The position numbers and the translations under genes are program-made. From the NCBI GenBank assembly GCA_043228905.1, contig JBHGNT010000016.1, positions 10,974,001 to 11,038,000 on the forward strand: a stretch of DNA of 64,000 bases, given 5' to 3'. Of this stretch, positions 4,451 to 60,414 are shown piece after piece; the first letter of the stretch is position 1, and each line of letters opens with the position of its first letter. The stretch is from Azolla caroliniana. Lineage: Eukaryota; Plantae; Polypodiophyta. The notes under the pieces were generated by a model. It made no database searches and was not told where the DNA came from. It was given only the letters and a program-made list of their open reading frames with translations.

Positions 4451-5857
4451 TCCCAAAATTATTCCTTATGAGGAATACCATACTAACGGCCTTTCGGTTT
4501 ACGCACTGATACGACCATGTTATGCGTATTATTTTATGCAGCCAGTCTACGCACTGGGTTACGCACCATGTTACGCACCCAATGTTCAGCTTGTCACTCA
4601 ACAATGCACTCTCTAGAAGTTTCCATGCACTCTCTAGAAGTTTTATAGCTTTCATGCATACCTCCACATTCTTGTATAAATAGTCGGGTGCACCTTGATT
4701 ACAATCAATGTGAACAACACCAGTTACGAAAGCATAATTCAATTCTTGTTCTTTTGTCTATTGTCTATTTCTCTTGCTTGTTCTCTTGTCTATTGTCTCT
4801 CTTCCGCTATCTCTTAATATTGAGCCTCGTTTACTTGGTCGTGACAGTTCGTTCACCTTCCCAATTTCTAAGCCTTAGCATATCGGATCTTACCGAGAGA
4901 ATAAATCAGCTCATGGAAGCCATGCATCAACTTCAACTTGAGAATGACAACCTTCGGGAATCGTTACGGAAGCCTCAAGTTGGAACATCGATGGAACTTG
5001 AAGAAAAAAACAACTCTCCTCCTGCATCAACAAATGTTCTACCTATAGAGCCTGGTTCCTCGTCTGGTCTTTCTCCAACTTGTCTCCATCCCACTACAAG
5101 TATGGAGCCCAATATTAGTTTACCTAACAAGTTTGATGGCACGAGGAAGCACTTGTGAGGGTTCATAAATCAGATTAAACTTATTATCCAACTACAGCCT
5201 CAATGGTATATGGATGATTTTCATCAAGTTGGTCTCATCGAGACTCTTTTGTCAGGAGCTGCACAAGCCTGGTTTACACCGTTGATCGAAACTTCATCAC
5301 CATTTCTACAAAATTTTCCTGCCTTTTTGGCAGAGTTCAAGGCAACATTTGGGGATACGAACCGACGCCGAACTGCCATTACCAAACTCTATTCATTACA
5401 TCAAGGTATGTGTATGGTTTGTTTATGCCTCTGAATTTAGACAATTAGCATGTGATGTCCAGTGGGATGGCCAAGCGCCTTGCGACCATTTTCGTCGGGG
5501 CCTTCGAAGCGAGATTAAAAATTTACTACTCAACTTTCTGGAGCCTACGTCATTGTCACAAGCCATCACGCAAGCAGTTAGTTGTGACAATCAGTTGTTT
5601 GAGCTTTGTCAAGAGGAACGAGAAACTTCAAGGTGGCAACCCTCTTCGAGATCTCCTCCATGGTCATGACCTTGTGCCGATGGAAATTGATCGAGCTCGC
5701 GCCCCGCCACTCACTGAGGCTAAACATAGGTATCGCCGAACCAAAAGACTATGTTTATATTGTGGTGCATCCACTCATCTAATTCCTTTCTGCCCAATCA
5801 AGAATAATCAACGACAAATATCTATAAACAATATGACAAGACCCCCCTAACAACCGG
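4451..5857 (+). mobile_element. Tcn1/Tf1-like Ty3/Gypsy element A: truncated 5' LTR (to 4846) plus gag pseudogene; first duplicated copy
   Basis: LTR end gtgaCA at 4846, TATA at 4675. Gag motifs EPNISLPNKFDG, LLSGAAQAWF, PMEID and zinc knuckle LCLYCGASTHLIPFC, with stops and frameshifts. Left boundary approximate. Confidence 0.85.
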
Positions 5858-35200: not shown

Positions 35201-36515
35201 CTTGCTCGCAACAAGTTGATTTACATACCCCATAAACGTGCTAATGTGTTCAACGATGCTCTCATCGTTCTTGTATTTCAGTCGTACGATCTTTCTCATC
35301 AACGAGGTTCCATTGAGCGCGTTCTTCCTCTCATAAAGAGCCGACAACTTCTACCATATCTCATGGGCATTCGTGTCGTTCGCCATATGCTGAAGGACAC
35401 TTACATCGACACATTGTCGGATTGTGGCCACCGCCTTCCTATTCAGAAGCTTCCAGTCTGACTCCAATACCCCCCTGGGTATTTCTGCTCTATCGACTGG
35501 CTCGTACAGGTCTTTAACTATGAGAAGGTCTTCCATCTTTATCTTCTAGTCTGCATAGTTCTGTGAGTTCAGAACTATCATACTTGGGAAACCGCTAACA
35601 CCTCCTTCCATGCTTGCACCTTAAGCTCTGATACCAGTTTGTTGAGAAATCGATGCGGAATTAATCACAATAATCGAACTACCCACTGAAATACGATTCA
35701 CTGAAATGCCAGAAAGATAAGATAAACAATGGTGCACAGAGATTTATGTGGAAACCCTAAAACGGGGAAAACCACGGGTGAACAGAATCTTCACTATACA
35801 AAGTGGATATACAACACCGAGAGGAATACAACACTCTGTCGAGTGTATCAGCCGCACATGGCTCTTCGTGTCTGTTGTTACTCACACAGCTATGGTGCAG
35901 CTCACACACACACACCCTCTCTCTCTCGCTCTCTTGCACACTACAACTTCCGTTCTCTACTCTGTTCGTCACTCACAATATGTTTGCCCTAGTTGCATAT
36001 ATACTTACGCAACTTTCTAGTTATTTACATACGTAGCCCTCATGGGGCGCACACTTAGACTATTTACAAATATAGTCTCCCAAGTCCCTCATCAACTCAG
36101 CTCCTCTCTCTCCCCATCGGGAGAGACCTGTTTCCTAACATCATCATCATTATTATTACTATAATAATAATAGTCAACTCACTATTTTCGACTCTTTGAC
36201 TGTCGGCTTTCCGAACAGTTGGATCTTCCCTGTCATCGATTGTCGGCTTTTTGATAAGTCAGTCTTCCTCCCACTGGAGGGACATATTCCCAACAGACCC
36301 TTCGACTCCTACTAGGACCGAAGATCTAGAACTTGAGCAATTTGACGTCAAGATGGCTTTCCTACATGGAGGTATGGAAGAAGAAATTTATGTGTCTCAA
36401 CTAGCAGGCTTCATGGCGACGGGGGAGGAAGGTCACCTCGTATGCTGACTAAAGAAAAGCCTTTACAGCTTGAAGCAAGTGTCGAGGATGTGGTACAAGA
36501 TGTTTGACTCCAACA
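29222..36515 (+). mobile_element. Old, heavily decayed Copia pol remnant (29222-30932 and 36296-36515), host of element C
   Basis: Plus-strand motifs YFITFVDEY, RSDNGGEY, PYTPTQNGVAE, FSPVVKMVT | LRLLL..LEQFDVKMAFLHG, KKSLYSLKQ. Confidence 0.85.
30933..36295 (-). mobile_element. Tork-like Copia element C, full length but decayed
   Basis: LTRs 30933-31593 (inner end deleted) and 35640-36295. TSD gacct/gaccc. PBS-Met 35625-35636. gag, PR (VIDSGASFH), INT and RT/RH (31566-32699) with frameshifts. Confidence 0.94.
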
Positions 36516-37160: not shown

Positions 37161-37610
37161 GGAATTACCCGCCAAGTCTAGTATATATTTGATCCTATAT
37201 GTCAACGACATGCCCATCATAGAAAATGATAGAACCGAAATCGAAAGTTAGAAAAATTAAAAATTTACAGAGTCCAAACTATAGTTAGAACTTACAAGGC
37301 CGAAGTAGAGAGTGGATTGTTCACTGGGCCTTTAATGTTGAATGTCAATTGTCAACACATATCATCTTGTATATGACTCATTCTCACAAAGGGGATTATA
37401 CTATCCTCAATGATCACATACTTCATAGAATGAAAAACACCATAGTGTTACCATAGTTATCGGATCTCAAATCACATCTCATATGTCTAGAGGGGTAAAC
37501 ACGTGAGATGCTTTCTTGGTAAAGTTCTTACAATCAAAATTTCTTGCATTAATTTTGCTTGTGTATTTTCTGAACCTCCTTATTTATATTGCATACCCAC
37601 AACTTGCATC

Positions 37611-40600
37611 ATGGAACAAGTTTTGAACATTGTTGGAGTGATCTCTCCGACCGAGACCTCTCAACTCCAATCCGCATCTCGCACACAAGCTGAGATCACT
37701 ATTGAGCAATTGCTCACTACAACCTTGAATCAATTGGCCGAAATGAGGCACACCAATATGGCATTGGAAAAGAAATTCCAATAATTGACTATTGAGTCCA
37801 ATAAAGAAGGTGAACCTTCTTTTGAAGTAACACCATTCAAGGGAGATCAGAAAGAAAGAACTGAGGAGGCCATTAGCATTTGGCTTGGTCGTCGGGAGTC
37901 TCACTTTGAGCTCCACCCCAAGCCCGATGCTATAAAAATTGGTTATGTCGGTTGTGAGTTAGGTGGCCGAGCTGCTGCTTGGTGGCGCAGCCTAAGGATT
38001 GCAAAGAACTTACCCACAACTTGGGAAGGTTTCGTTGATGTTTTTAAGAAATAGTTTTTGATATCACCTTCTCAAACTGAACAAGCGCAACACTTGCTCA
38101 CGTTGTCGAGTAAGCCATTTACCTCTCTTGAGGATTATGTGCATCATGCTCGGACCCAAATCCAAAAATCAGGACTTATGGGTGAGAAATGGTTTGTTGC
38201 TTGCTTTTTGAATGGTATTCCCAATGGGGATTACCATTGGATTGTCCATGACAAGGACCCCACAACTTTTGAGGAAGCCATCAACATTGTACTTCGGTAC
38301 CATAGGTCTTCCAAGAAAGACCACAATAAACCTGAGTTCGCCAAAACTTTGAATGTCAAGTTCATTGGGAAACGTAAGCAATCCAATGACACTCTTGACT
38401 GTGACTCCAAGAAATTAAACCTCTTCTGTGCATATTGCAATAAGCGGGGCCACATAAAGAATACTTGTCGTCGTCTTGAGAGGAAGTCAATGAACACCCC
38501 TCCTCAAGACAAATCTACAACCACTTAAGGTCATGTGAATGCACTTTTCCTTCACATTTACTTGGACCTAATGATTTACTCTGAGTAGTCAGGTATATCA
38601 ATGGAACACAAGCACATTTCTTGTTTGATTCCGGTAGTTCTCACAATTTTCTTAATGATCACTTTGTGCAGCAAATGGAACTCCATATAAACACAAGTGA
38701 TCATATCTATCAAGTTCACATGGCAAATGGAAGCGTTCAATACATCAAATGCGAATTCAAATAGATACCTATTTGGAGAAGCTAGACTTTCATGCTATGA
38801 AACTACAACCCGCAGATGTCATTTTAGGATACCCTTGGTTTTTTAATAAAAACCCTTCTTTGTCCATTGATTAGGTTAATCACTCAATCACATTTGAACT
38901 TAATAATTGTAAACATTTTATTCAATGTTCCAAACTTCTTTCTCGTTCACTTGTGTCTTCTAAATCTTTAAGTTGGTATTTTAGTTCATTAATGTATTCG
39001 TGTGTAATTGATCATGCGATTCAATTTTATTATTTTAATATTGACGCCACACAATTACCACATTACGAACAATGATTACTCGACTCTATTTTAGACGATT
39101 TTCAAGACGTGTTTCCTAACAAATTCCCGCTTACTTTACCACCAAAAAGTAATGTGGACCATCAAATTGAACTCATCCCCGGTGTTGCTCCTGTGAGCAT
39201 TCCACCTTACCGACTTAGTCGATTAAAAGAGGATGAGATTGCTAAAAAATTTAAGAAATACTTGAGTAAAGGGTGCATTAGGTATAGTAAATCACCTTGG
39301 GGTGCGTCAGTTCTATTAGTTAAGAAGAAGGAAGGTTCATGGCGAATGTGTATCAATTTTGCCGTTTGAATAAAATGACAATTAAAAATGCATATCTGTT
39401 ACCTCGTGTCGATGGTTTGATTGATCATTTGCATGGGGCCTGATATTTTACGAAAATTGACTTACGAACAGGTTATCATCAAATTCACATTGCAAAGGAT
39501 GATATTCTTAAAACAACTTTTCGTACGTGTTATGGCCATTATGAGTTTTTAGTCATGCCATTGGGGGTTGACTAATGCTCCAACCACATTCCAAGAAGTG
39601 ATGAATAACGTTTTTCGAGATCAACTCGGTGATTTTGTTGTCGTCTTCTTGGATGATAGTTTGATATATAGTCGTACCTTGCAAGATCATGTTCAACATG
39701 TTCGATTTGTTTTGCAAGAGTTGCGTGATAACTCTGTCTATGTAAAACATTCAAAATGTGATTTTTTCCCAAAATCTATTGTGTACCTAGGTCATTTAAT
39801 TATGGAAAATGGCGTGGAAATTGAACCTTCTCGTATTGAAAAGGTTAAACTTTGGCCCATTCCTCGTAATATTTGTGAACTGCGATCATTCTTAGGGTTT
39901 GTTGGATTTTTACGAAAATCAATTCATAACTATTCCAAATTGACTATGCCATTAACTTACCTTTTAAAAGGTCATCCATGTAAGCCTGTCAAACCGATTG
40001 CATGGAATGAACAACTTGACAAATCATTTGAGACACTCAAAGAGCATGTGTGTCAAGCTTCCACTCTTCTATTACTGGACCCTTCTAAGCTTTTCTCAAT
40101 CGAAACCGATGCTAGTGATTATGCTATTGGTGCCGTTCTTTATCAAGGTGGTCACCCTATTGATTTTGAAAGTAAGAAACTTGATGCTGCTCAATCCCGG
40201 TATTCAGTTCAAGAGACAAAGTTGTTTGCGGTAATACATGCACTTAAAACATGGAGGCATTATCTCTATGGAAATAAATTTGTGGTTACAACAGACCATC
40301 AATCATTGAAGTATTTTTGTGACCATCCAAATCTTATTGGTCGTAAAGGCTATTGGGTTGACCTTATGCAAGATTTTGATTTTTCCATACGATATCACAA
40401 GGGTTCTATGAACACCGTTGCAGATGCTCTTAGTCGCATTAAAGAAGTTAACATGCTTAGCTTCACGGAAATAAAATCTGATCTTTTAGATCACCTTCGA
40501 GGGAAATACCTTGATGATAGTTATTTCTCAAAATACTAGACGAAAGCCGAATTTGGTTTAGATGCCGTTACTAGCACCCTACCCTCGAAGGTGACCTTTC

Positions 40601-42383
40601 ACATTACAAACGGTTTCCTCTACCGTAGTGGAAAGGTCTATGTTCTAGATTTACCAAATGTAAAATAGTAAATTCTTCATGAATGTCATGATGTACCATC
40701 CGCGGGTCATCTTGGAATATAACGCACAATCGTTCTCATCTCGAGCACTTTTTTCTGGCCTAAGATGCACTCTGACGTGCATAAATACGTAACTCAATGC
40801 TTACAATGTTAGATAAATAAGTCAGAACGACTTAAAGCTACTGGTCTTTTACATCCCTTAGATATTCCCAACAACAAATGGGAAAGTATCTCAATGGATT
40901 TTATTGTTAGTTTACATCGTACACAGAGGGGTCATGATGCCATTTGGGTTGTCGTTGACAGACTAACAAAATTGGTTAGATTTATTCCTACCAAAACCAC
41001 GGTAACCGCTCAACAATTGGCTAATCAATTTGTTGATGAGTTATTTCGTTTTTATGGATTACCGATGGATATTATTAGTGATCGAGATTCCTAGTTTACT
41101 AGTGACTTTTAGACTCAAGTCTTTAAGAAACTAGAAACTACGTTGAGCATGAGTTTCGCAGATCATCCTCAGTCTGATGGACAAACTAAACGAGTTAATC
41201 AAATTATTGAGTACATGCTTCAAGCTTATGTAGCGAAAACCCCTTCTAAGTGGGAACAATGCCTTCCTATCTTAGAATTTGCCTATAGTAGCTCTAAACA
41301 TACATCCATTGGATATAGCCACGTGTCCCAGTCGATGTCACGATTCACCTGATACATTAGATATTACATGCAATTTTTTGCAAGACATGAAACAAATGTT
41401 GCATATTGCCAAAGAAAATGTCAAGACAACTCAAGATCGTGCTTGATTTTATGTTGATCAAGAGAGACGTCCTCGTGCATTTACTATTGGTCAAAAAGTT
41501 TTTTTGCATGTCCCGACTAACTCTACGTCATTGTCTACGGGCAAGTGCGCTAAGTTAGCCCCACGATATTGTGGCCCATTTAAAATCCTTATGCGAGTTG
41601 GTTCATCTGTTTATCACCTTGCCTTACCCTAACGTTGGTATTCATCCTGTTTTTCACGTCAGTGATATAAAACCATTTTTAGGCTCTGGTGATAACACCA
41701 TCACAATCCAAGATCTTGTAACATTAGAGGATTTTTCTTACAAACCACATGTTCCTGAACGAATTCTTGATTCTCGTACTAAACGTGTATGGTCTAAAGA
41801 GATTCTGCTATTCAAGATCAAATGGATGGATAAACCTATTGATGATGCCACATGGGAACGTGAGCATACTCCTAAGGCACAATTTCCTCACTTCATATTG
41901 CAAGAATGCAATCATTTAAAGTAGGGGAGTATGTTATGTACACATAACATTGGTGAGGGTAGGTCACTAATATTTACATTAGTGAAGGATATGTTCACTA
42001 ATGTTAAAAAGGGGCTAATGTGATTGGATACAAGGAATGATAGGTGCATGCACTATCATGATTTGGGCAACCAATGAATGGAGACCCTTTTAGAAAGGCA
42101 CATCTATTCAAGGGGCCTAGGAAAAGGTATAAATATGAGGCTTAGCTACCCTCATAAGCACATTACGTTGAAAGGTTGTTGTCTTAGACACCGGTGGTGC
42201 GGGCCAGGGTTTCATCTCAACGATCATGTTTATCTCTTCCAAGGTATTAGTGATCCTAATATCCAACGGTATGGGACGTCAGTGGTAGCTCGGGGGTGGT
42301 CGGGTGGAACAGGTTCTTCTATCCAATCTATTTTCCTTCGTTTACCTTACTTTGGTCTATTGATTAGTAATACACACTTAACA
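37611..42383 (+). mobile_element. Chromovirus (Gypsy with C-terminal chromodomain), decayed; 3' LTR 41932-42383; no matching 5' LTR seen
   Basis: gag with CAYCNKRGHIKNTC, protease LFDSGSSHNF, RT (SPWGASVLLVKKKEGSWRMC, FLDD), RH (ETDASD), INT (SMDFI, HPQSDGQT), chromodomain PERILDSR..KIKW...DATWE. PPT aaagtaggggag, then tgtta...taaca. Confidence 0.92.
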
Positions 42384-43140: not shown

Positions 43141-43460
43141 CCAACAGACGCGCTCTGTCTAACCGTCAGTCTGAGGGTGATAGGCGGAGGACAACTTGAC
43201 GGAGATGCCTAAAGTTTGTAGCATGCACTGCCAGAAGTGAGAGCCAAACTCGGGTTCGCTATCAGAGATGACATCGTTGGGGAGGCCATGCAAACAGAGC
43301 ACATTATTGAGGAGTAGATGTGCCATTCCTTCTCCAGAAATAGTTTTTGAGCATGGAGTGAAGTGAACCATCTTTGTAACCCGATCAACAACAACCAACG
43401 CCGAGTCATAGCTATTGACCAAGGGTAGATCGTTTATGATGTCCATAGAGATAGAGGCCC
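43141..43460 (-). pseudogene. Gypsy integrase core fragment
   Basis: SMDII.DLP...VVVDRVTKMVHF...ISDS...SSAYHPQTDG (ORF 43159-43446). Confidence 0.85.
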
Positions 43461-46400
43461 TGTTAGGAATATGTCCTAGTGGGAGCAGTTGACTGATCAG
43501 ACGAGAGCCGATGGTTGAGGAATCAACTCAAAGAGAGTTGATGGAGGTTGAAGACACGACTTGGCTAGTTGGGTCAATGACCAGGCCGACTAGTCGGACC
43601 GACTAGACAATCGATGAATGAGTTAGCTGATTAGTAGGACTATTATTATTATTATTGGATAATAATAATTACCATGATTGTAAATAGCCCATTCTGTGTA
43701 TTAGTATAAATACACCTAGGGCAAAAAGAACATGGAGACAAATATATGGGTGAGCCTCTGTAGCATAGAGATATAGAGAAGAGAAAAGAGTGTGAGGGAG
43801 CATGAGTGAGTGAGCGGCGCCATAGCTGTGATAAGAACAACATACTCCAAGAGTCCTTCAGGGTTGTTTACACTCTATGTAGAGAGTGTTATACTCTAAT
43901 CTTGTTGTTGTATATCCATTGTGTAGGGAAGCTCCGTTCTCCGTGGTTTTCAACCACTTTAGGGTTTCAACGTTAAATTTGTTTACACTGCATTCTATGC
44001 TTTAGAGTTTGTGGATTGCCGATTCATTTCGCAGCAAATTGGTACCAGAGCTTGAGGTGCAAGCATGGAAGGAGGTGTGAGTGGCTTCCTAGGAATGATG
44101 GTTCTAAACTCTCAGAACTATGCAGACTGGAAGATAAAGATGGAGGACCTTCTCATAGTCAAAGACTTATAGGAGTCGATCGATAGAGCAGAAATACCCA
44201 CGGGGGTGGTAGAGTCGGAATGGTAACTTCTTAACAGAAAGGCGGTGGCCACCATCCGACAATGCGTCGATGTAAGTATCCTTCAGCATGTGACGAACGA
44301 CACAAATTCCCACGAGATGTGGCAGAAGCTGTTAGATCTAAATGAGAGGAAAAACGCCTGAATAAAATCACACTGATTGAGAAGAGTATTCGGAATAATC
44401 TTCGGCCACAACCTAAGCTTAGATCACTTAATGATAATCAAACACATAAGAAATGGGAAATGGAAGTAAGTACACAAACAGAAAGAGAATGCACAGGATG
44501 TTAACGTGGAAAACCCTAGATGGGAAAAACCACGAGAGTCCAAAAAACTCCAACTCTCACTATACAAGAATAATACAACAAGGGAACCCAGAGGCAACGA
44601 CCTTGTGCTCACAACAATCTTTGCTTGGTGGCAGTTACAATGGAGACTCGCTCTGTCTGTCTGTCTGTTTGTCTCTCTTTCCCTCTACTACGCTCTATAC
44701 AACAGTTACACCAATATCACTATACTAAATAATGACAGCACAATGGTACATACACACTCTGTTTGCGTTAGGTCATATTTATACTGATATGACTTTCAAG
44801 CTATGTAAAAATATAGCCACAATGGGCTAATAGAAACATATTTCGATATATGTCCCTCCATCCGGTGAGAGGTTCTCATCGGGCATGCGTCATCTGGTTC
44901 TCACCGGGTTTTCCGTTGCCAGGTACTCATATCCCATCCGGAGGGACCGAAATACTAACAAACTCCCCCTTCACTCCGGCATGGGATGCTTCATCAATCC
45001 AATCCTCTTCCTGCATGCATCTAGCTTGTTAGGTGTCAGCACCTTGGTCAGCATATACGACCCGTTCTCCTTCATGTGGATCTTCGTCAGCACGAACTCT
45101 CAATCTTCCACTCGCTCCCGAATCCAGTGGTACCTCCGCTGGATGTGCTTCATCCTAGAATGATACGCTACGTTCTTCGCAAGGTGGATGACACTTTGAC
45201 TGTCTCAATAGAGCCGATATTCCTCTTGCCGGATCCCTAGCTCATCAATGAAGTCCTTCATCCATAGTATTTCCTTGCCGGCTTCCATAGCCGCCATGTA
45301 CTCCGCCTCCGTGGTTGACAATGCAACCGTCTTTTGCAGCCTCGACTGCCACGAAACAGCTCCCCCTGCATATGTCATAACATATCCGAATGTTGACCGG
45401 TCGGTATCCGCATAAGCCGACATATCCGAGTCGGTGAAACCGTCGAGTTGGGGTTTACTGGAGCCGAATTGGAGACACACAGTTGAGGTGCCTTTCAAGT
45501 ACTGGAATATCCATTTTACTGCATTCCAGTGCTCCTTGTCGGGATTTCTCATAAAGCGGCTCACCACTCGGACTGTGTATCCAATATCCGGTCGAGTACA
45601 CACCATTGCGTACATTAAGCTTTCGACGGCAGAGACATATGGTATCTTTATCATATCTGCCTTCTCTACCTTCGTCTTTAGGCTTTGCTTACCGGATAAC
45701 CTGCAGTTTGCCGAGAGTGTCGATTTGACCGGTTTTGCATCTAACATGTTGAACCGCTGAAGCACCTTTGTCACGTACTTCTCTTGTGACAGCCATAATT
45801 GCTTCGTTGACCAGTCCCGGATGATATGCATCCCCAGTATATCTGTCTTGCTGGACCCAAGTCTTTCATTGAGAAGGTCCGCTTCAGGGCCTTCTTCAGC
45901 ATCTGTATCTGGACTTGGTCTCGTCCGACGATCAACATGTCGTCCACGTACAGGAGGAGTATCGGGAAGTCTCCACCTTCGAACTTCTTCACAAATACAC
46001 AGTGATCGACCTGCGTCTTGTGGTACCCTTGATTGGTCATGAAGGAGTCGAACTTCTGGTACCATTGCCGGGGGGAGCCTGCTTCAAACCATAGAGGCTC
46101 TTCTTCAACCGGCAAACCAGGTGCTCCTTCCCTTTCTTCACAAATCCCTCTGGTTGCTGCATGTAGATCTCCTCTTCGAGGTCACCATGGAGGAACGTTG
46201 TCTTCACGTCCAACTGCTCTACCTTGAGGTCCATGCTTGCCTCTATACTCAGCACCATCCAGATGGAAGTCATCTTTACTACTGAGGCAAATATCTCGTC
46301 GAAGTCCACGCCCTTCTTCTGCTAGAACCCCTTCACCACGATCCTGGCTTTGTATCTCAGGGGGTTGTCGGCATCTCCCGGTTTCAGCTTGTACACCCAC

Positions 46401-49400
46401 TTGTTTCGGAGTGCCCTCTTTCTTTTCGGCAACTCCAGCAATTCATATGTGTGGTTCTCATGCAGGGAATCCATCTCGTCCTACATGGCACTCAACCACT
46501 TGCAGCTATGGGTGTCATCTTTCGCTTCTTCGAAGCTTTTCGGCTCCCCCTTATCGGTCACCAACACATGCTCTACATCTGGAAATCTCCGGGGTGCTCT
46601 TCTTTCCCGGAGAGGATATCTACATCCTCGGTTTTCGGTAACTGGCTCCTGTGTCTGTTCTTCATCCGAATCCGATTCGAGGTCTTGGCCAGTTCCAGTT
46701 TCTACTTCTTCTTCTTCTTCGGTCGGTTCGGTATCCTCATCGTAACCGGCCTGTTCTTCGAGTGTCAACCGGCTCTTAGCCGGGTAGGTCCGTATCTCAT
46801 CGAATCGGTCCTTTCCGGGCAACTTAGAGTTCATTATCTTCTTCTCTGACTCCCAATCGGCAAGAGTCTTGTTCTCCATGAAGATAATATCTCGACTCTG
46901 AAAAACCTTCTTGTCGACCGGATCCCACACTCGGTAACCGAACTCATTATCGTCGTATCCGAGGAATATGAAAGGCCGCGACTTTGGATCCAACTTTGCT
47001 CTCCGGTCCTTTGCAACATGCATGTAAGTGAGACATCTGAACACCTTCAGGTGCTGGTAAGACACTTCCTTACCGGTCCATACTCTTTGTGGCGTGTCTC
47101 CGTTCAAGGGCACTAAGGGTGATCTGTTTATCACATACGTCGCTGTCGACAACGCCTCAGCCCAAAATGTCTTGGGTAGCTTAGCATGTGCTAAGCATAC
47201 TCCGGACCCTCTCCATTATGGTACGGTTCATCCTCTCGGCCAGCCCGTTTAGTTCTGGCGTCTTCGGCTTGGTAAATTCTAGCCGGATTCCCTTCGAGCG
47301 TCAGTACTCCTCAAACTGCCCCTGGTATTCGCCTCCGTTATCTGCTCGAATCGCCTTAAGCTTCCAGCCGGTTTTTCTTTCCACTCTTTCGTGGAACTCC
47401 TTGAAGATGGATAACACCTGATCCTTCGTCTTCAGCGGTGAGACCCACAACTTCCGGCTGTGGTTGTCTATGAACGTCACGAAGTACTGCGATCTGGCAT
47501 GTGACTTCGTGTCCACTTGACACACATCGGTATGCACCACCTTCCGTGGTGCATTGCGTCTCATCGGTGGCCTTGATCGGAAGGAGGTCCGGTTTTGCTT
47601 ACCGGCCAGGCAGTTGGTGCACCTCTCAAGATGCACATCCTTCACCGGAATGAGGTTGTCATCGGCAAGCCTCCTCATCCCCTTCTCGCTCATGTGGCAC
47701 AGTCTCTTGTGCCACAACTCACCGGTAGTGTCGGATGCCACGTTCACATCTTTCGGGCATAATCGGGCATAATCGGGCATTCATCAGATACAACGTGTTG
47801 ACTTTCTAGGCCCGAGACACTACCAGGCTCCCTTTGCTGAATTTCATGACACCGTTCCGGATGCTATACATGTAGCCTTCATCATCTAATCGATCGGCTG
47901 CTATCAGGTGCAGTCGAACTTCCGGAACGCGTTGAACATCCTTCAGCAACAACTTGCATCCGGTTGGTGTTGTCAGCCACACATCTCCTCTGCCAAGAAT
48001 TCGGCATATACCTTCATTCCCCATGCGGACACAACCGTGATCACCGACCATGTAGGATGAGAAGCATTTCTGGTTCGGGGTAACGTGGAACGACGCTCCG
48101 GAATCGACAATCCACGTTGACTCGTCGCCGGCAAGGTTCAACTCACTCTCCTCAGTGATGAGCATCAACTCTTCTTCACTTGCCACGATGTCGTCGTTCC
48201 CTTTCGGTCCGGTCCCCTCTGGTCTTTACCGTTCCGCTCCGGTACCGCTTCAAATTGGTACTATCGGTTTCCTTGTCTTTCTGGAAATGCCAACAGTTCT
48301 TTTGGAAGTTCCCCGACTTCCCATAGTAGAAGCAAGTGGGCCTTCCCCTTAACTTTGACCGTGTCCCTGACTTTTCCCGGTTCTAGAGACTCTGGTTCGT
48401 TTGTCTTCCGCGTTCCGATTCGATAAGGAGCGCTTTGGAGTCGAAGCTCGTATCCTTGTCTTTTCGACGCGCCTCCTCATCTAGCAAGCTCGACTTGACC
48501 ATTGCTAGGGATAGTTTTTTTCCTTTCGGCTCGGCGTTGCCCAACATGACAACCAACATCTCCCAGCTATCCGGGAGGGAACCGAGCAGGAGTAGAGCAA
48601 GTACCTTATCGGCGAGAGGTACTTCCAGAGAGGTTGCTTGGTGTATCAGTCCCTGAAAGGCATTCATGTGCTCCGCCATGTTGGAGCCATCTTGGTACCA
48701 GAGTCTTACTAGCTTCCGGAATATCGAAACCCGATTAACAACATTTTTGTTTTGAAACATAATACCGATCTTCTCCAAGAGCTCATGAGCCTTGGTCTCT
48801 TCATTGAAGTTGTTGTATAGGCTCATGTCGATGAAGCACTGAATGTATGACGTCGTCTTCATGTGCATCACCTCCCACATCGTGGTGTCGATCTTGTCTG
48901 GTCTCTTGTCCCCGAATTGAACCGGCAACCAAAGTTCTTTAACCACGAGCATGTCCCTCATCTTCGACTTCCACACTGAGTAGTTGGAGTTGGTGAGCTT
49001 GAACATGCCTCCCAACGAATCTTCCATTTTCTGTGTTGTTTCGCTCTGATACCAAATTGAGAAGAGTATTCGGAATAATCTTCGGCCACAACCAAAGCTT
49101 AGATCACTTAATGATAATCAAACACAGAAGAAATGGGAAATGGAAGTAAGTACACAAACAGAAAGAGAATGCACAGGATGTTAACGTGGAAAACCCTAGA
49201 TGGGAAAAACCACGAGAGTCCAAAAAACTCCAACTCTCACTATGCAAGAAGAATACAACAGGGGAACACAAAGGCAACAACCTCCTACTCACAATCTTTG
49301 CTTGGTGGCGGTTACAATGGAGACTCGCTCTGTCTGTCTGTCTGTTTGTCTCTCTTTCCCTCTACTATGCTCTATATAACAGTTACACCAATATCACTAT

Positions 49401-50032: not shown

Positions 50033-53000
50033 TTACTCCTATCCACCTTATTAGCACCAACCTCAATAAACAATCTATTCTTACCATCATCTGACATCTT
50101 CCATGTCAGCCACTCCACAACATCATGTGCATTTTGTAACTTCGCAACTTTTTTATCCAACTGTTCACTTGTAAGAGCACACTTGATCACAGCCCCCGCG
50201 CCATCGTGCTCTCCGTTTCCATGTCCAGACCCAAAGTAGTTCCATTGCATCCTAATGTTTGTCAATGAGAAGTATCTGGGTGTTTTGCATGATAGCTAGC
50301 CAACAAACAGAGTTAGTGCATTATTGGAGCTTACATCTCTTAACATAACTTAAACCAAAATTTCCACGAATGCACGAGAGAGGATAGTACTAAGGTATTG
50401 ATTAGTACTAATGCATGAGAGAGGACAGTCCTAAGTTATAACTTGGTCTTAATGAACAAAGTTGGACAGTACTAAGTTAATAATTAGTAGTAATGAACAA
50501 AGTTAGACAATCATAAGTTATAAACTTGTGTGAATGAACAAAGTTGGACATTACTAAGTTATTATTTAGTACTAATGCACTAGAGAGACCCATCCTAATT
50601 AGTACTAATGAACAAAGTTATAAATGAGTAGTAATGACCGAAAGAAGATAGTACTAAGTTATTCATTAGTACTAATGCACGACAGAGGACAGTGCTAAGT
50701 TACAAATTAGTACTCCTACATGTGGGATGACACCACAAAGTTATCAATTAGTACTTGTGAATGCGGGATCTGAGTACTAAGTTGTAAAATATAGTTAGTA
50801 CTTGTGCATGTGGGATGATAGTACTAAGTTATAAAATAAGGGTACTTTACAAGGCGTTGAACTGTAGTCAGTACTTGTCCATGTGGGATGATACTACTAA
50901 GTTGTAAAATAAGGATACTTTTCAAGGCTTTGAACCATACATACAACACTTACACCATAATTAGTACAAACATTTCAAGACAGTACTGGTGCATGTAGTA
51001 GGAGAATTGCTAATTGTGTTTTATACAAACATTTTTTATGACTGTTCATATAATATTCGTATTGTTAGGAAACTCAACCAATACATGATGATGTACTATA
51101 AATTATTACCAAAATAGACTTCCAATTATAAATACCAATCATATGGATTATTTCCTTACCTTGCAATAAAGTGGAAGGACCGAACCGCCTTAAATTGCGA
51201 GGCAACACCATCAAACCAGACCGAATGGCAATAAAAGTTAACACCCAAGGACAATAAATCTGCGTGGTGAAGCTTAAAACAATGTTGAACAAATAGCGTA
51301 TCATGCTTTTTATCATCTGAAATATAGAATATTGCTTTCTTATGTAACTCACCAACTTTTCTCCAGTAGCAAATATGTACAAGTATTGTACATTGGTCAT
51401 TGTACCAATGTATTGACTGAACCTCATTTTGAACTTTAAAGGTATAGTTCTCTGCAAAGTCAATAACAGATACCATAACATCCGGTGGTAAGTTATTTAT
51501 ACATTCCTTGAACTGTGAATTTTGCCAATAACTCCTAAAGTTATATGGAATGAACTCCTCGAGTTGATTCCTAAACTCTGAGACAAGGGTAGCAACACAT
51601 GTCTCCTTATATACTTCCTTGATACGCTTACTAACGAAACCCTTACCTATATTTTCTGTCACATACTCTAAATATTTCCATTGCACAATATGACAGTTAT
51701 CCACGTCTACCTCCTGTCTACAAATAATGGTCGTGGGAAAACCTTACATGTTCTGACAAGACATGTATAATTATGCCACTCAGATGATGGTTGTTTTTGA
51801 CAAACAAAAGACCTCCATAACTCAGAAACTGTTGCATAAGTCATGTTTCGCGCATTACATTTATTACCACTCCCATTTGGTCTACATACCTCACAAGTGC
51901 AAACACACCCATCCCCATGTATACCCTTAGAATCAGTACGCATACTGTTCACGCCAAGCCTTAACATGTCCATTTTAATGTGGTACACACAACAACATGT
52001 GTTCCTCTCCTTTAACTTTCTAACAAAAAATGGTTTCAAACCTTGGAACTTGCGAAATCCAAGATTGGTGCTAGGATGTTGATCTTTGAAGTTCATGAAC
52101 AATTAAGCCTACATCACTCAATCTGGTACCTACCTCGACTTATACGTTGTCTACATACATCTTTTTTATTCGGTGAGACACATGTGTTTTTTGCCCAAAA
52201 GGAACCCACTTCCTCAATAATCTCATGAGACAATGCATCACATCGTCATCTACGGCCTAACCCCAACCACTTAAATTGATTTGATTGTATATTTGTCCAA
52301 TGTTTCCTCAAGTTCCTTCTTTGGATACCAAGTGCTAAGGCAACTTTAGTATCAAGTGCTATATATTTTTTTAGTTGTACCATTTACAACCATGTGAAGG
52401 GCTGCTCTCTTTGCACCAAGCTTATCTATGCTCTCTACCCCTTTCACTAAGTGTAGGGATGACTTCATACACTCTACAATTTCCTCTAAAACACATTGGT
52501 CCCTAAACTTAATATTCGCCATGTCTTCATTCAAAAGTTGATGGTGCAACACTCTAGAGATAATATCCCTACGATCCTCCAAGCTAAATCTCTCAATTAC
52601 TTCTAGTAAATAACGGACTATGTGAAGAACCAAACCGTCTCTTGCTCCTCTCAGACATAGATTTGCTAAGGGACACCTCGCTCTCCTCATCGATGACCAA
52701 TTGTCACTCTCATATATTCCAGCACCTAATTTCTTGTTATTTCCGCACCTAATTAATCAGAATAAGTGCTTAATACATCATAAAATAAACATAGTTAATA
52801 CCCCATAGCATAAACATGAACTGGAAATCGGATAAACATGTACTTTATAGAAATAACCACTTTATAGAAATAGGCGCAGACATACCGAGTGAAAGAGAAG
52901 ATGGAGAAGACATACCGATGGAAGGAGAAGATGGGGAAGACGAGTGACGCAAAGAAAAGAAAATCGGGTTTCGAGTGAGTTGTCTCAGTTGGAAGGCGGA

Positions 53001-53251: not shown

Positions 53252-56200
53252 TGTTGTGCTCCGGCCAAATAGGGGCGCCATTCTTCAAAGGCAACAATGA
53301 TAACATCAAGCTCCTTGTCATATATTGGATAATTGATTTCGGATACCATGAATTTGCGGGAGTAGTAAGCCACTTGGTGCATTATGTTGGAGTCATCGGT
53401 CTAGGATAAAATGGCACCAATGGCAAAGTCAGAGGCATCAAATTCAACCCCGAAGGGTCATATGGAGTTAGCATGTAGAAATCGAATGCATGTTTGAGAG
53501 AGTCGAACAAATTTTGTGCTGCCGAGGTCCATAGAAAGGGAATACCTTTGCGCGTGAGGGCGATAAGAGGATGTGCTAGAGTGGAAAACCCCCTGATGAA
53601 GCAACCGTAAAAATTGGCGAAGCCAAGGAAGGATTGCACATCTTTAAGTTGAGTTGGAGTCGCCTACTCCCAAATGATGGAAACCTTCTTCATAGCCATC
53701 GTGATGCCAGTGAGCGAGATGTTGTAGCCCAAGAATTCAATTGAGGTACGGTTGAATTCGCATTTCTCACATTTGGTATAAAGGTCGTGCTTGACAGGTG
53801 TGCTCCACTATGTTTGGTGAAAAAATGAGAATATCATCCAGGTAGATGACCACAAAATGATCAAGATATTCCCGGAATATATCGTTCATCATATGTTGAA
53901 AAATAGTTGGGGAGTTAGTAAGGCCGAAAATCATTACCTTGTATTCGGAATACCCATATCGTGTTCGGAATGTGGTTTTCCATTCATCATCGAGCTTGAT
54001 GCCTACCAGATTGTATGCAACACGTAGACCAACTTTGGAGAAGACGCGCGGAGCGCGTAGCTGATCGAGGAGTTCAGCGATTAGAGGGAGCGGATAGCGG
54101 TTGTGCACAAGGATTTTTTTGAGACCCCAATAGTCTACACAGAAGCGTAGAGAGCCGTCCTTCTTCTTCACAAATAATATGGGGGCCCCGGCTAGCGACT
54201 TAGAAGGTTGAATAAATCCTTTCGCGAGGTTCTCATCGAGATACACTCGAAGGGCCTTTAGGTCTAGTGCAGGTAATGCATATAGAGGACCAAAGAGTGG
54301 AGATACACCTTCTTGAATATCGATGGGATAGTTGTAGAGCCGGTGTTTGAGCAAACGATCTACATTACGTTTCTCAAATACAACGGAGAAGTCTTTATAC
54401 TTGTCAGAAATAGCATGGAGTGTGTTAGAAGTAGCTCCACAAATGGCAAGCAGGAGATGAACTAAGGGTGGAGTGGTCGAGTCGGAATTGACTGTCTCCG
54501 AAGGATGTGAAACTGAATTGACCTTCATAGTTTTGTGTGAGCATCCTGGCTCGCGAAATGTGATCGAGTGATTACACCAATCCACTATTGGATTGTGCGC
54601 CTCCAACCACAATACTCCTAAGATGATCAGATGCTGAGGGGATGCGATGAGGTAAAAGGGGAGCTCCTCTTGGTGGGAGCCCACACGAAGCCCTAATGGG
54701 ATTGTAGTCTCGGTAATTGCTCCTAACGAGAGGACACGCCCGTCAATGGCTTCCCACATGAAGCCCTAATGGGTTTTAAAAGGCACACGATGGGTATCCC
54801 ATGTGCTCAGGCGAATGCCACATCGATGAAGCAAAAAGACGCTCCAGAATCTAGTAAAGCGATAGATTGAATGAAACTGGAATTAAAAGAAAGGCATACC
54901 TCCAATGTGAAATTGCTTGATGTTCTAGCAATGGAACCACGGGAATGTGGATGATAGGAGACATCCAGCTGCATGGCTCCTACTGCAACCGGAAGATGTC
55001 GTTTTCCAGATGTTGGGGTCCGTTGACTCGATGGAATGGTGGGCGATTACTTCTAGGAAAATGGTGAAGAGATGACCCAAGGCACCACAATATACGCACA
55101 ATCCATTAATCCGCCGAAATTCTCGTTCAACATTAGTCAATGGCCGAAAGCGAGCTTGATCAATTTCCATTGGGACTGGAGCATCTGCCAGAGTAGGGGA
55201 GCATGACGCTACCGACAGGAGGGATACCTAGGGTTGTACGAATGGGACGTGTCATGGAAGTGAATGAGTCAAACCCCAATTCCGGCGCTCTTCTTGACGA
55301 AATTCAAAAAGACGATTGTCACAATGGATTGCTTGTGAAATCGCTTGGGATAACGAGGTGGGATTGGGAATTTTCAAGAGAAGATTCATGACATCGCTCT
55401 GGAAGCACCGTCGAAAATGATTAGCTAAAGCTTGATCATCCCAATTGACATCACATGCTAGTTGTCAGAATTCCGAAGCATAGGCAGAAGTTGCACGCGA
55501 ACCTTGTTCGAGTGCATACAGCTTGGTGAGGGTTGTACATTGTTGGTCCGTCTCTCCAAATGTGGCCTCTAACTCGGCGAGGAAGGCGCGAAAGTCCTCC
55601 AATAGAGATGAAGAAGTTTCTACCGAAGGTGCAAACCAAGCTTGGGCCAGACCAGTGAGGAGGGTGCCCAAGTCCAACTTGTCGAAGAGCATATGCTTAT
55701 ACGTTGAGGTTGTAGCCGAATGATTAGATGAATTTGGTTGATGAACCCCCGGAAACTTGACCTCCTTCCATCAAATATTTTTGGGAGGCTAATCTTAGGC
55801 TCAAGAAAATGAGAAGAAGCTAGATCCGATGTTGGTAGAAGATTCGGCTCCGAGCTAGGTTGTGGTGGGACACTAGGCTCCGTGGGTTGTGAGGATAGAG
55901 AGGTGTCGACTTGAAGTTCTCGTAAAGAATTCTGAAGAGCTTCATTTTCAAGCTGGAGGTGTTGTAAGGTTGTCATTATCTGGCCTAAGTCACAGGCTAG
56001 GTCGGACATAGCTATGGCTAATGAGAAGGAGAGCTACGAGAATGGGAAGGTGAACAAGCTGTCAGGGGTAGAAAATATACACAAGAGAGCAGAAGATAAT
56101 CAAAGGGATGAGTTGATTAATTGAAAGACTCTGTAATGGTGTTGTTCACCTTGATTGTAATTTAGGTGTACACACATATTTATAGAAGTTCTGAGATTGA

Positions 56201-56427
56201 ATATCTCTAGAATATACCTAAGAAATATCTCTAGAATATACCTGAGAAATATTTCTAGAATATACTCGTCTAGAATATACCATAAAAAATTTCTAGAATA
56301 TTCTATATGCTAGACTATATAAAATATTAACCATATACAATTTACATATAAGTTAAGGGTTTCCAAATGGTTTATCTAATACTAAGTATTCGGTGTGTTA
56401 GTTAGAGGTTTGAGTCTAGATGTGACA
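53252..56427 (-). mobile_element. Tcn1/Tf1-like Gypsy element B: 5' LTR 56060-56427, gag, PR, RT, RH (decayed)
   Basis: LTR tgtca...tgaca. gag MSDLA..EPKISLP..FDG, MEID, LCVYCGALGH. Protease LLDSGAS, RT ORF 53767-54759 (YLDD), RH to AFEEWRPYLAGAQ. Confidence 0.92.
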
Positions 56428-58700
56428 TCATGTGGTGTGGCCTCTTGTCTCACAGCTCACCAGTTGTGTCGGCTGCCACATTTACTTCCTCTCGGCATAA
56501 TCGAGCATGCATCAAATATAGTGTGTTGGTTATCTAGGCTCGGGCCACAATCAGGCTCCCTTTGCAAAAATTCATGACGTCGTTCCGGATGCTACCCGTG
56601 TAACCTTTATCATCTAGCCGACCGGCTGATATCAGATTTAATCTACCTTCCGAAACGTGTCAGACATCCTTCAACACTACTCTGCACTGGGTTAAGGTTA
56701 CCAAACACACATCTCCTATGACAACATTTCGGCATGCTCCTCATAGATTCGAGATCTCCACTTCTATAAGATGAGAAGCATTTTTGGTTGGGGGTTAGGA
56801 GGAATGACCCACCCGAATCGACCACCCATGTTATTTCATCGCCGACAAGGTTCACTTCGCTTTGCTCACTGATGAGCAAGAACTCCTCCTCACTTGTTGC
56901 GATAGCTGAAGTGTTCTTGTTGTCTGAAATCTTTCGGAAGTGTGGGCAATTCTTTTGGAAGTGCCTTGGCTTTCCATAATAGAAGCACGTGGGCCTTCCC
57001 CTCGACTTCAACCTTGTCCCCGGCTTATCTCGATTTTGGGAACTTCGATTCCGACCTCTTCCTCGTTTCATGTCACGTTCCGTGACTAAGGCCTTTGGCT
57101 TGGCAATGGACTTTCGGTCCTTCCAGCGAGCTTCGTCGTTTAGTAGGCTTGACTTCACCTGGTCTAGGGATAGATGCTTCCCTTCCGGTCCGACATTGCC
57201 CAATGTGACAATGAGCGTCCCCCAACTATCCAAAAGGGATCCCAGCAACTGTTGGGAATATGTCCCTCCAATGGGAGGAAGAACGAACTGATCGGAAAGA
57301 CGACAACCAATGACAGGGAAGATCCGACTGTTCGGAAAGCCGACAGTCGAAGAGTCGAAAACAGTGAGTCGACTGTTTGAAGATTCAACTATTATTATTG
57401 TAGTAGTAATAATAATAATAATGATGTTAGGAAATAGGTCTCTCTAGATGGGGAGAGAGAGGAGCCGGGTTGATGAGGGACTCGGGAGACTAATTGTAAA
57501 TAGTCGAAGAGTGCGCCCCATGAGGGCTACATATGTAAATAACTAGAAAGTTGCGTAAGTATATATGCAACTAGGGCAAACATGTTATGTTTGGAACAGT
57601 GTAAGAACTATAGGTGTAGAACAAGAGAGAGTGTGCTAGAGAGAAGTGTGAGCCGCGCCATAGTTGTGTGTGTAACAGTAGACGCGAAGAGCCCTATGCA
57701 GCTGATACACTCGATAGAGTGTTGTATTCCTCTCAGTGTTGTATATCCACTTTGTATAGTGAAGAAATCTGTTCACCCGTGGTTTTCCCCGTTTTAGGGT
57801 TTCCACGTAAATCTCTGTGTACATCTGTGTATCTTGTCTTTCGGCATTAAGTGTGATTCGTATTTCAGCGCGTAGTTTGCTTATTGTGATCTATTCCGCA
57901 TCGATTTCTCAACAGCAACAATAATGCTAATACCTCGTCGGCAAGAGGTACTTCTAGAGAGGTGGTTTTATTCATCACTCCTTGGAAGGCATTAATATGC
58001 TTCACCATGCTGGTACCATCTTGATACCAGAGTCTCATGATTTTTCTGAAAACTGAGACTCTCTATTCACGGAGTTCTTGCTCTCAAACATTACGTCAAT
58101 CTTCTTCCAGAGGACGTCGACGCTCGTCCCTTCATCAAAGTTGTTGTATAGACACATGTCTATAAAACACCTTATATATGCAACCGAGTTTAGAAGCATG
58201 ATTTCCCAAGTTGATGCATCGACCTTGTCTAGCTTCATCTTCTCATATTGCACTGGCAGCTACAGGTCTTTGCACACGAGCTTATCCCACATCTTCGACT
58301 TCCACACTGAATAGTTCGAGCCGGTTAACTTGAACATTCCACCAAAATGTTCGTCCATCGCTTTGATACCACTTTGATGGCATCGTGACCAGCCACAACC
58401 GGTTTCTCGTACGTATGTTCGGGTACAAAGAATCGACAATGACAATGCACAAACAGAAAACAGAAAGTACTGAAAAGAGAACACAGAGACACTGGATTTT
58501 ATAACGTGGAAAACCGAAAGGGGAAAAACCACGAGGGTCCACAAACCCCAAGAAAACAAATCACTATGTGTACGGAGAGGAGTACATGGAGACTTGGAGG
58601 CAACAACCTCAAACTCGTTTTTGTGTAACAAACGGCAACAGAGTTATTGCTCTTTATCTCTCTCTCACTCATAGTTACAAAGGCAACTACTCTCATGATA
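56428..58700 (-). mobile_element. Decayed Copia (B-like): gag-PR with PBS 58360-58371 and truncated 5' LTR from ~58375
   Basis: MDEHFGGMFKLTGSNY, LLGSLLDSW, TWVVDSG; gctttgatacca. Right boundary approximate. Confidence 0.85.
57250..57914 (+). repeat. Solo LTR of the Copia C family
   Basis: tgttg...caaca with perfect TSD gcaac (57245-57249 and 57915-57919); reverse-complement homolog of 35640-36295. Confidence 0.95.
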
Positions 58701-58759: not shown

Positions 58760-60414
58760 ATATATTGTAATACGAAAGATATTATTTTCATTTAAGTTTT
58801 ACTGTAGAAAATAGATGTATATTCCAGATTTCTTTGGAACATTCTAGAAACTTTAGGAGTACTCCTAAGAACACTATAAAAGGAGGCACGATCCATTATT
58901 TCGAACCAAATCAGTTCAACACCAGTCTTAAGCCTCCTAACTACTATTGTATATTCTCTTAACATAATATATATCTTTCGTTATCATCATTCTCTCTCTT
59001 CGAGAGACTTGGGTGGAAATGAAATTAGGCCTAGTATAACATCATTTTTATTGTAGAACATGTTTGTTATTTTATTTTACTAGAACTATTTACCATAAAA
59101 CTCTATTTCTATTTTTATTTTTATTTTTTACGTTCAATGAATGGGTCAATATCCCATTTTTTGTTGTAAACCATTTGTCTTATGGGCCAATTTTGGCCTT
59201 AGAAGACATTAATATATCTTTCTTTCTTTCTCTCTCACACTCACTCTTTCCTTGTCTCAAGAGTTCTACACCTCCCTTAGTACTAATCCTCATATTTTAG
59301 TACTAATTCCTTCTCTGTCTTAGTACTGTTGCTGAATGTACTTCTATGTCTTAGTACTCTTCCTGACAGTTTGAACCGATTTTAGTCTCCTTCCTTCTCT
59401 TCCTTTTATCTTCTTACTTCTCCCTCCCTTCATATTAATCTCTTATTCCTCTTTTCTCTCATACTATGGCCATTGTTAGCGCTCAGGTATATCAATATGT
59501 TTTTTCGGAGTTGCAATGCTTAAAAGAGAAGTTTCTCACACCGGAACAAGAAAATCAATGACTGTTGGGGGAGCTTCAACAAATCTCTTTCAAGAAGCAG
59601 CAAACGCAACAACAACATGGGAACTAGCATTACACGTGCAACAACTCAAAGCGACCATTGTAGCCTTGCAACAACAAGGATCAAGTACGCAAGGTATTCA
59701 TAAAGAACCCAAGATCGGTCTTCCTATGAAATTCAATGGAACGCGATCACAGTTTAGAGGATTCCTTAATTAGGTACGATTAGTCATTCAAATGCATCCT
59801 TCCCGATATCCCACCGATGCATCACGAGTGGGTCTAGTAGGCATGTTGTTAAGTGGCTCAGCTTTGGCATGGTTTCCTTTGTTGTTAGAAAAGGAATCTC
59901 CATTACTAAACAATTTTGAAGAGTTTATAAGTGAGTTTAAAGCCTGTTTTGGAGATACTGATAGCATAAGGACAACAACAACAAAATCCGACGACACATA
60001 TGCCGCAAATTTCCGTCGACTCAGCTCCGATATCCCCTGGGATGACCAAGCATTAATGGAGCAATGTCATTATGGAATACGTAACGATGTCAAGGATTTA
60101 CTCTTGACCTTCCTCGAAGAACCAAAGTCATTGATAGAAGCAATCAGTCACGCAGTACGATGTGATAACTGCATCTTCGAACGACATCCAGAACGTCAGT
60201 TTCAAATGCCAAGGGCAAGATCAGAGCCCACCTACGTTTTAGTTGTAGCAAAGGCTTTCCCAAGGGAGTCATTTAATACATCTCCAACAAATACTCCGAC
60301 TCCAATGGAAAATCGACACCACACGTCGTAGTGGACCCCTATATGAAGAAGAAAAGCAGGGACGCCGGGCAAATCAATTATGTCTTTATTGCGGTGGACC
60401 GGGCATACTGCAAT
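58760..60414 (+). mobile_element. Tcn1/Tf1-like Gypsy element C: partial LTR (ends 59368) and gag pseudogene
   Basis: TATA at 58875, LTR end cctgaCA at 59368. gag EPKIGLP.KFNGTRSQFRGF, LLSGSALAWF, PTPME, LCLYCGGPGH. Left boundary approximate. Confidence 0.82.

What the first reader, a model, noticed from the sequence alone, without database searches (positions are those of the whole stretch)
56047..56184. tRNA-independent self-priming signal in a plant Gypsy LTR (perfect 11-nt PBS / 5'-end duplex)
Seen: element B has no TGG-type tRNA PBS. On the minus strand the LTR end (..ctgaCA, 56060) is followed by a 2-nt spacer and TTGTTCACCTT (56057-56047). Exactly 32 nt downstream of the start of the LTR TATA box (tataaata, 56184) lies AAGGTGAACAA (56152-56142), its exact 11-nt complement; pairing does not extend on either side. 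Known: S. pombe Tf1 primes minus-strand synthesis with the first 11 nt of its own mRNA annealed to the PBS and cut off by RNase H. Inference: this family self-primes the same way and its TSS is at 56152.
Basis: partly seen in the sequence, partly recalled or inferred. Interest (0 to 1): 0.82.

Follow-up and report, generated by a model that had tools for sequence, protein, structure and literature searches.

The report
Self-priming plant Gypsy retrotransposon relic
This is a broken copy of a plant jumping gene whose primer site pairs perfectly with its own terminal repeat instead of a tRNA, so its family likely starts copying itself with the first 11 letters of its own RNA, a trick proven in yeast and already predicted in print for this group of plant elements.

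Summary
Observation confirmed: the 11-nt site 2 nt after the LTR (56057-56047) is the exact complement of 56152-56142, 32 nt after the TATA box; 1 of 20,000 LTR shuffles did as well. Two other element starts in the window show the same layout, one with different letters. 31 of 57 related loci have a complement of 9 nt or more at a 2-nt spacer, against 1-5 at other spacers. The RT groups with fungal and vertebrate Tf1/sushi-type chromoviruses, apart from seed-plant ones. Self-priming is already predicted in print for 83% of 1,500 plant Tcn1 elements (PMC6317226), and this scan found it before in moss genomes. The TSS is untested, and this copy is truncated and mutated. One addition: U3, between TATA and primer, holds a second complement that covaries with primer and PBS. 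It would fold over the 3' copy of the primer. I did not find it in print, but the scan noted it before on other DNA. The host may be a fern (unverified), where Tcn1 was not detected by an earlier PCR survey.

The parts
56060..56427 (-). 5' LTR of element B, 368 bp, TGTCA..TGACA ends; no second LTR in the window
   Evidence: junction with the Copia remnant at 56429
56177..56184 (-). TATA box (TATAAATA), 32 nt before the primer
   Evidence: invariant TATAAA in 13 of 13 aligned LTRs
56160..56171 (-). U3 arm complementary to the primer (partly decayed here: CACCT pairs with AGGTG; 10-12 bp stems in L002 and L003)
56142..56152 (-). predicted self-primer, first 11 nt of R (AAGGTGAACAA); TSS predicted at 56152
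   Evidence: TSS not tested
56058..56059 (-). 2-nt spacer between LTR end and PBS
   Evidence: spacer 2 in 31 of 57 related loci
56047..56057 (-). primer-binding site (TTGTTCACCTT), exact complement of the primer, not TGG-type
55069..56009 (-). gag remnant with stops and frameshifts
   Evidence: tblastn with related Gag-Pol proteins; translation
53254..54974 (-). pol remnant: protease, RT and part of RNase H, 75-79% identical to P0003, in four out-of-frame pieces; ends within RNase H, no integrase or chromodomain
56429..58346 (-). Copia remnant (gag to integrase) that breaks off at the start of B's LTR; likely the element into which B inserted
4592..4859 (+). element A, same family type: LTR 4592-4846, TATA 4675, primer-like 4707-4717, PBS 4849-4859, 9 of 11 pairs; repeated 5,531 nt further on (primer 10238-10248, PBS 10380-10390)
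58875..59382 (+). element C, different sequence, same layout: TATA 58875, primer-like 58908-58919, LTR end 59368, PBS 59371-59382, 11 of 12 pairs; gag remnant 59621-60404 follows

Best explanation
This is the 5' LTR and primer-binding site of a truncated, mutated Ty3/gypsy element of the Tf1/sushi chromovirus type (Tcn1-like), whose family likely primes minus-strand DNA synthesis with the first 11 nt of its own RNA. Shown: the exact 11-nt complement, the 2-nt spacer, the TATA distance, matched changes in relatives, and the RT placement. Inferred from Tf1: transcription starts at 56152; the 5' end folds back onto the PBS; the RT's RNase H domain cuts after base 11 and the freed 3' end is extended. 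Also inferred: a U3 arm between TATA and TSS, present in RNA only at the 3' end, folds over the second copy of the primer in the 3' R region and keeps it off the PBS. This copy is dead; the signal is a relic.
For: Chance 1 of 20,000. Elements A (9 of 11 pairs) and C (11 of 12, different letters) share the layout, TATA distance 32 and 33. 31 of 57 loci have a complement of 9 nt or more starting exactly 2 nt after an ACA, against 5, 4, 4, 2, 1 and 5 loci for spacers 0, 1, 3, 4, 5 and 6. Among 12 loci with two LTRs, 6 have 9 nt or more and 10 have 8 or more at spacer 2. L003 has the same 11-mers as B; L004 differs at two primer positions with both matched in the PBS; L010/L011/L067 and L019 use other sequences, TATA distance 31-35. 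The RT lies with fungal and vertebrate elements, split from seed-plant chromoviruses and an algal one at SH-aLRT 99. The closest whole relative P0003 has a chromodomain. Literature: Tf1 mechanism (PMC7175516, passage); 83% of 1,500 plant Tcn1 elements predicted self-priming (PMC6317226).
Against: No TSS, cleavage or cDNA data: no RNA run was listed as holding the stretch, and only contigs could be laid. B has no 3' LTR, so its LTR end rests on terminal repeats and homology. 26 of 57 loci showed no 9-nt match at spacer 2; some are cut short or decayed, which I did not sort locus by locus. The loci are not independent (several belong to one family). Of the two flanking duplexes that Tf1 needs, the one 3' of the PBS is only 3-7 bp with G-U pairs in the close relatives, and both are weak in B. 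SM-Tcn1 was first reported with no sign of self-priming (PMC2864245, section 6). Tf1 and named plant Tcn1 sequences were not in my trees.
Confidence: 0.88

Rival explanations
1. The PBS binds a host tRNA half or fragment, or another small RNA, and the match to the LTR is a structural side feature like the retroviral U5-leader stem.
For: The host's tRNA set could not be searched: no genome is held and the window has no tRNA gene. Half-tRNA priming exists in plant Copia lineages (PMC6317226, passage).
Against: No TGG after the LTR. The PBS changes freely between families and always tracks the family's own LTR, which a fixed host RNA would not allow. Half-tRNA primers were found only in Copia lineages (PMC6317226, passage).
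Confidence: 0.05
2. The family self-primes, but the RNA starts elsewhere (for example further upstream) and the primer is released by two cuts or carries a 5' extension.
For: No TSS data. Tf2 uses alternative start sites in vivo (PMC5341516, passages).
Against: The primer starts 31-35 nt after a TATA box in all close relatives with a readable PBS, the usual TATA-to-start distance for plant RNA polymerase II (recalled). An upstream start would include the U3 arm, which would fold over the primer.
Confidence: 0.05
3. The 11-nt match is chance or a local inverted repeat with no role.
For: The window is repeat-rich, with many inverted repeats.
Against: 1 of 20,000 shuffles; spacer-specific recurrence in 31 of 57 loci; compensatory changes.
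Confidence: 0.02

Closest known systems
Plant Tcn1-clade chromoviruses (REXdb; PMC6317226 passages and Additional file 5; PMC2864245 sections 6 and 7)
   Same: Ty3/gypsy, RT closer to fungal than to seed-plant elements, no tRNA PBS, a complement of at least 10 nt in the 5' LTR starting 0-5 nt after it (the paper's own criterion), chromodomain in the closest whole relative.
   Different: Reported from mosses and Selaginella; a PCR survey of ferns and horsetails found none. Here the RT clade also holds an Adiantum nelumboides protein (P0383) and the host may be a fern (unverified). The U3 arm is not mentioned in the passages read. No named Tcn1 sequence was in my trees.
Tf1/Tf2 of Schizosaccharomyces pombe, Tj1, Tosmo1-3 (PMC7175516, PMC4600332, PMC10085805; passages)
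   Same: 11-nt primer at the predicted RNA 5' end complementary to a PBS just after the LTR; priming shown by experiment for Tf1.
   Different: Tf1 needs a three-duplex 'pretzel'; here the central duplex is clear, the duplex 5' of the PBS is seen in relatives, the one 3' of it is doubtful. No experiment exists for B's family. Whether Tf1/Tf2 have a U3 arm could not be checked (the LTR alignments in the supplement are pictures).
TAR-lineage Copia elements of plants (Houba, Osr-1; PMC6317226 passages)
   Same: Predicted self-priming in plants (89% of 203 elements).
   Different: Copia, not Gypsy; unrelated to this RT.

Membership tests
Ty3/gypsy LTR retrotransposon | LTR with TG..CA ends followed by gag, protease, RT, RNase H in gypsy order | tested here: met
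   best solved match Ty3 RT, E 8e-30
Ty3/gypsy LTR retrotransposon | two LTRs, PPT and target-site duplication | tested here: inconclusive
   B is cut within RNase H; no 3' LTR in the window
Chromovirus | chromodomain at the end of integrase | tested here: inconclusive
   B lacks this part; its closest whole relative P0003 (80% identical over the RT) has PF00385 at 1104-1154 with Tyr, Trp and Tyr at the cage-like positions, read by eye
Tf1/sushi group | RT groups with fungal and vertebrate chromoviruses, apart from seed-plant clades | tested here: met
   SH-aLRT 99 in two quick trees without bootstrap; Tf1 itself not in the tree
Tf1/sushi group | PBS complementary to the LTR, not to a tRNA 3' end | tested here: met
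Tf1/sushi group | two flanking duplexes of the pretzel structure | tested here: inconclusive
   5'-side duplex between R and the U5 end 6-8 bp in A, L003, L004, L010, L011, L067, L019, but 4 bp in B; 3'-side duplex 3-7 bp; no null was computed
Tf1/sushi group | primer is the capped 5' end and is cut off by RNase H | not testable with these tools
   no raw RNA reads offered
Tcn1 clade | one clade with Cryptococcus Tcn1 and moss/Selaginella Tcn1 elements | tested here: inconclusive
   B is in a 14-row clade (SH-aLRT 98) with an Adiantum protein; two Cryptococcus proteins and a Batrachochytrium protein lie outside it at unresolved forks; no named Tcn1 reference was available and the Cryptococcus proteins are not known to be Tcn1
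Tcn1 clade | host is a non-seed plant | not tested
   plant-type Copia neighbours support a land plant; 'likely fern' comes only from unchecked notes on this genome

The most novel reading that the evidence does not exclude
Self-priming plant Gypsy elements carry a third, co-evolving copy of the primer duplex: a U3 arm between TATA box and start site that folds over the primer sequence only at the RNA's 3' end, so that just the 5' copy can reach the PBS. Primer, PBS and U3 arm change together, which makes a three-part switch for choosing the priming end; and this Tcn1-like lineage reaches into ferns.
Probability: 0.45. Interest if true: 0.5.

Novelty: new member of a known kind. Interest (0 to 1): 0.3.

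Why it matters
The priming mode itself is not news: it is proven in yeast and predicted in print for this plant group. The value is in two additions. Compensatory changes across families give better support than one-element complementarity for a plant prediction that, in the papers I read, rests on sequence matching alone. The U3 arm offers a testable answer to a problem every self-priming element has: its RNA carries the primer sequence twice, and only the 5' copy should be used. If the host is a fern, the known range of Tcn1-like elements also widens, which bears on the proposed fungus-to-plant transfer.

Tried and rejected
No whole genome is held, so the copy-by-copy test in this genome and the tRNA comparison could not be run. 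No RNA holder was listed. Laying contigs of two runs with the same species label gave 5 short pieces on B from X1 and none from X2; one X1 contig matches 56137-56172 at 31 of 36 letters and ends 4 nt later, but contigs cannot show RNA ends and the run may hold DNA, so I draw nothing from it; one search added no piece over a PBS or gag. Viral contigs: 3 distant loci; an exact TATA-primer pattern found 0. Prokaryote genome contigs gave 28 loci, mostly short and distant; I did not analyse them for priming sites. Rfam: only a chance match at E 0.45. ARAGORN: no tRNA. The careful trees did not finish; only quick trees are cited. U3 arm, results against: by folding z-score only 4 of 17 close LTRs fall under -2 and B itself is -1.0; element C has only 3 contiguous pairs; L008 and L019 fold in a different register and, with C, were left out of alignment A2; in the 24 distant elements the signal is weak (452 of 20,000 permutations for Watson-Crick pairs, 2,984 with G-U); the two measures least inflated by kinship were not above shuffles (297 and 271 of 500). 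Rejected: tRNA priming (no TGG, PBS tracks the LTR); chance.

Full report
Observation. On the minus strand the TATA box starts at 56184, AAGGTGAACAA lies at 56152-56142, the LTR ends at 56060, and after a 2-nt spacer comes TTGTTCACCTT (56057-56047), the exact complement. The flanking bases are C opposite C on both sides. There is no TGG in the 20 nt after the LTR. The LTR is 368 bp (56427-56060) with TGTCA..TGACA ends. 1 of 20,000 dinucleotide shuffles of the LTR gave a complement of 11 nt or more to a site starting 0-5 nt after the LTR. The predicted RNA 5' end folds with all 11 pairs, z = -3.1.

The element. The window is a stack of transposons. Element B has gag and pol remnants with stops and frameshifts; pol is 75-79% identical to an intact 1,183-aa relative, P0003, and ends inside RNase H at 53254. 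No integrase, PPT or 3' LTR follows. B's LTR starts where a Copia integrase remnant breaks off. So B is a dead relic, and the question is about its family.

Inside the window. Two more elements of this type start here. A (TATA 4675, primer-like 4707-4717, PBS 4849-4859; repeated 5,531 nt further on) pairs at 9 of 11 positions. C (TATA 58875, primer-like 58908-58919, PBS 59371-59382) has different letters and pairs at 11 of 12. TATA distances are 32, 32 and 33 and all spacers are 2 nt.

Relatives. A scan of metagenome contigs kept the best 80 of 567 related stretches; viral contigs added 3. Of these 83 loci, 57 had enough DNA upstream of RT. 31 of 57 have a complement of 9 nt or more that starts exactly 2 nt after an ACA, against 5, 4, 4, 2, 1 and 5 loci for spacers 0, 1, 3, 4, 5 and 6. 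In 12 loci where two LTRs fix the boundary independently, 6 have 9 nt or more at spacer 2 and 10 have 8 or more (one of them AT-rich and doubtful); L008 and L032 gave none in that call. L003 has the same pair of 11-mers as B. L004 has AAGGAGATCAA / TTGATCTCCTT, two changes matched on both sides. L010, L011 and L067 have AGCAGACCAA / TTGGTCTGCT, and L019 has AGTCTGGTCAA / TTGACCAGACT. TATA distances are 31-35. These loci are not all independent. A PBS that follows each family's own LTR is what self-priming predicts and tRNA priming does not (inference).

Placement. In two quick maximum-likelihood trees (SH-aLRT only; the careful searches did not finish) B's RT sits with P0003 inside a clade (95, 98) that also holds a protein of the fern Adiantum nelumboides (P0383). 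That clade lies among fungal (Cryptococcus, Batrachochytrium, Cunninghamella, Absidia) and amphibian elements, and all are split at 99 from seed-plant (Tanacetum, Mikania) and algal (Nannochloris) ones. B's RT is 58-66% identical to the fungal proteins, 66% to the Adiantum one and 44-49% to the seed-plant and algal ones. P0003 carries a chromodomain. This is the Tf1/sushi type. The tree used 90 rows chosen by me (named proteins, the best unnamed hits, 43 loci, window segments), that used 32. The host is a land plant by its Copia neighbours; 'likely fern' comes from unchecked notes.

What is known. PMC6317226 (passages; Additional file 5 read whole) predicts self-priming for 83% of 1,500 plant Tcn1 elements and 89% of 203 TAR elements, using a complement of at least 10 bp starting 0-5 bp after the LTR. 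B meets that test. Its Additional file 1, with per-element data, was too large to read and may bear on the details. PMC7175516 (passages) gives the Tf1 mechanism: first 11 bases pair with the PBS and RNase H cuts between bases 11 and 12. PMC10085805 and its preprint (passages; supplement part 1, LTR alignments not readable) describe the three-duplex pretzel. PMC2864245 (passages and sections 6 and 7) found Tcn1 in mosses and Selaginella, none in its PCR survey of ferns and horsetails, and no priming signal in SM-Tcn1. PMC4600332, PMC5341516, PMC3601003 and PMC8282616 were seen as passages. The primary papers of Levin, Lin and Levin, and Butler et al. were not read. This scan reported the same layout before in moss genomes.

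Pretzel. A duplex between R (about +16 to +24) and the U5 end is 6-8 bp in A, L004, L010, L011, L067 and L019, with different letters; L003 has a 6-bp helix at another place in R; B has 4 bp. The duplex 3' of the PBS is 3-7 bp with G-U pairs in the close relatives. No null was computed, so this is inconclusive.

The U3 arm. Between TATA and primer the close relatives carry a second complement of the primer. L002 and L003 have 10-12 bp stems, L004 has 12 pairs with one bulge, the L067 family 7 contiguous pairs; B and A keep 5 contiguous pairs. With one LTR for each of 9 close families, own arm and primer pair better than swapped ones: mean 6.7 against 3.9 bp, 7 of 20,000 permutations for Watson-Crick pairs and 67 with G-U. 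In a 13-row alignment anchored by TATA, RNAalifold predicts the hairpin unaided, 5 of 9 pairs with changes on both sides. For the 12-pair helix I named, 81% of cells pair against 28-49% when slid by 1-3 columns. The positions that change in L004 and in the L067 family change in U3 arm, primer and PBS together. Against: 8 of the 13 rows are one family, so there are about three independent lineages; the two kinship-resistant measures were not above shuffles (297 and 271 of 500); C, L008 and L019 were left out of the alignment because they fold weakly or in another register; only 4 of 17 close LTRs have a folding z under -2; the 24 distant elements give a weak signal (452 of 20,000). Since U3 is transcribed only at the RNA's 3' end, the hairpin would cover the second copy of the primer there (inference). 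I noted the arm; later showed that the scan had reported it on other genomes, with the same masking idea, which is not independent support. Paper searches listed nothing that describes it in the passages I read, but the primary Tf1 papers were not seen, so absence from print is not established.

Verdict. The TSS and the cut are untested. Interest 0.3, most of it for the U3 arm and the possible fern host.

Noticed in passing
window 2378-7910 and 7909-13441: A 5,531-bp head-to-tail duplication at 100% identity, covering decayed Copia and Gypsy pieces and microsatellites; either an assembly artefact or a very recent tandem duplication.
   Followed up: no
window 23447-27250 (-), LTRs about 22511-23432 and 27242-28145: A young Copia element with an open 1,267-codon frame and LTRs 96.5% identical; several older relatives lie at 31581-35611, 44983-49009 and 56429-58346.
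   Followed up: partly
window 13831-14798 and 20778-22196 (+): Pol of a B-like element split in the RT by a 6-kb Gypsy-type element on the opposite strand with 800-bp LTRs (14787-15589, 20006-20776; 90% identical); a further B-like integrase piece lies at 43147-43521 (-).
   Followed up: partly
window 37600-41930 (+): A divergent decayed Gypsy element (33-38% identical to all others tested, very long branch) with a purine tract before a likely 3' LTR near 41932; its primer site was not examined.
   Followed up: no
window 51074-52756 (-) and 50351-50752: Broken ORFs of a likely DNA transposon and a 41-bp tandem array follow the point where B is cut off; the type was judged by eye only.
   Followed up: no
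L005 4009-4650 and L009 2990-3550: Two related elements carry, between pol and the 3' LTR, a TATA-like box and a short extra reading frame with similar sequence in both.
   Followed up: no
window 56141-56131 and equivalents in L002-L004, L008, L010-L018: A conserved CAC(C/T)AGT-like motif follows the primer at the predicted cut site in the close relatives, whatever the primer sequence; it may position the cut.
   Followed up: partly
L084-L111: Eukaryote-type chromovirus pol sequences occur on contigs of prokaryote genome assemblies, likely contamination.
   Followed up: no
window 56200-56310: U3 of B holds several copies of a TTCTAGA palindrome repeat, also seen in U3 of A, C, L002 and L009.
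   Followed up: no
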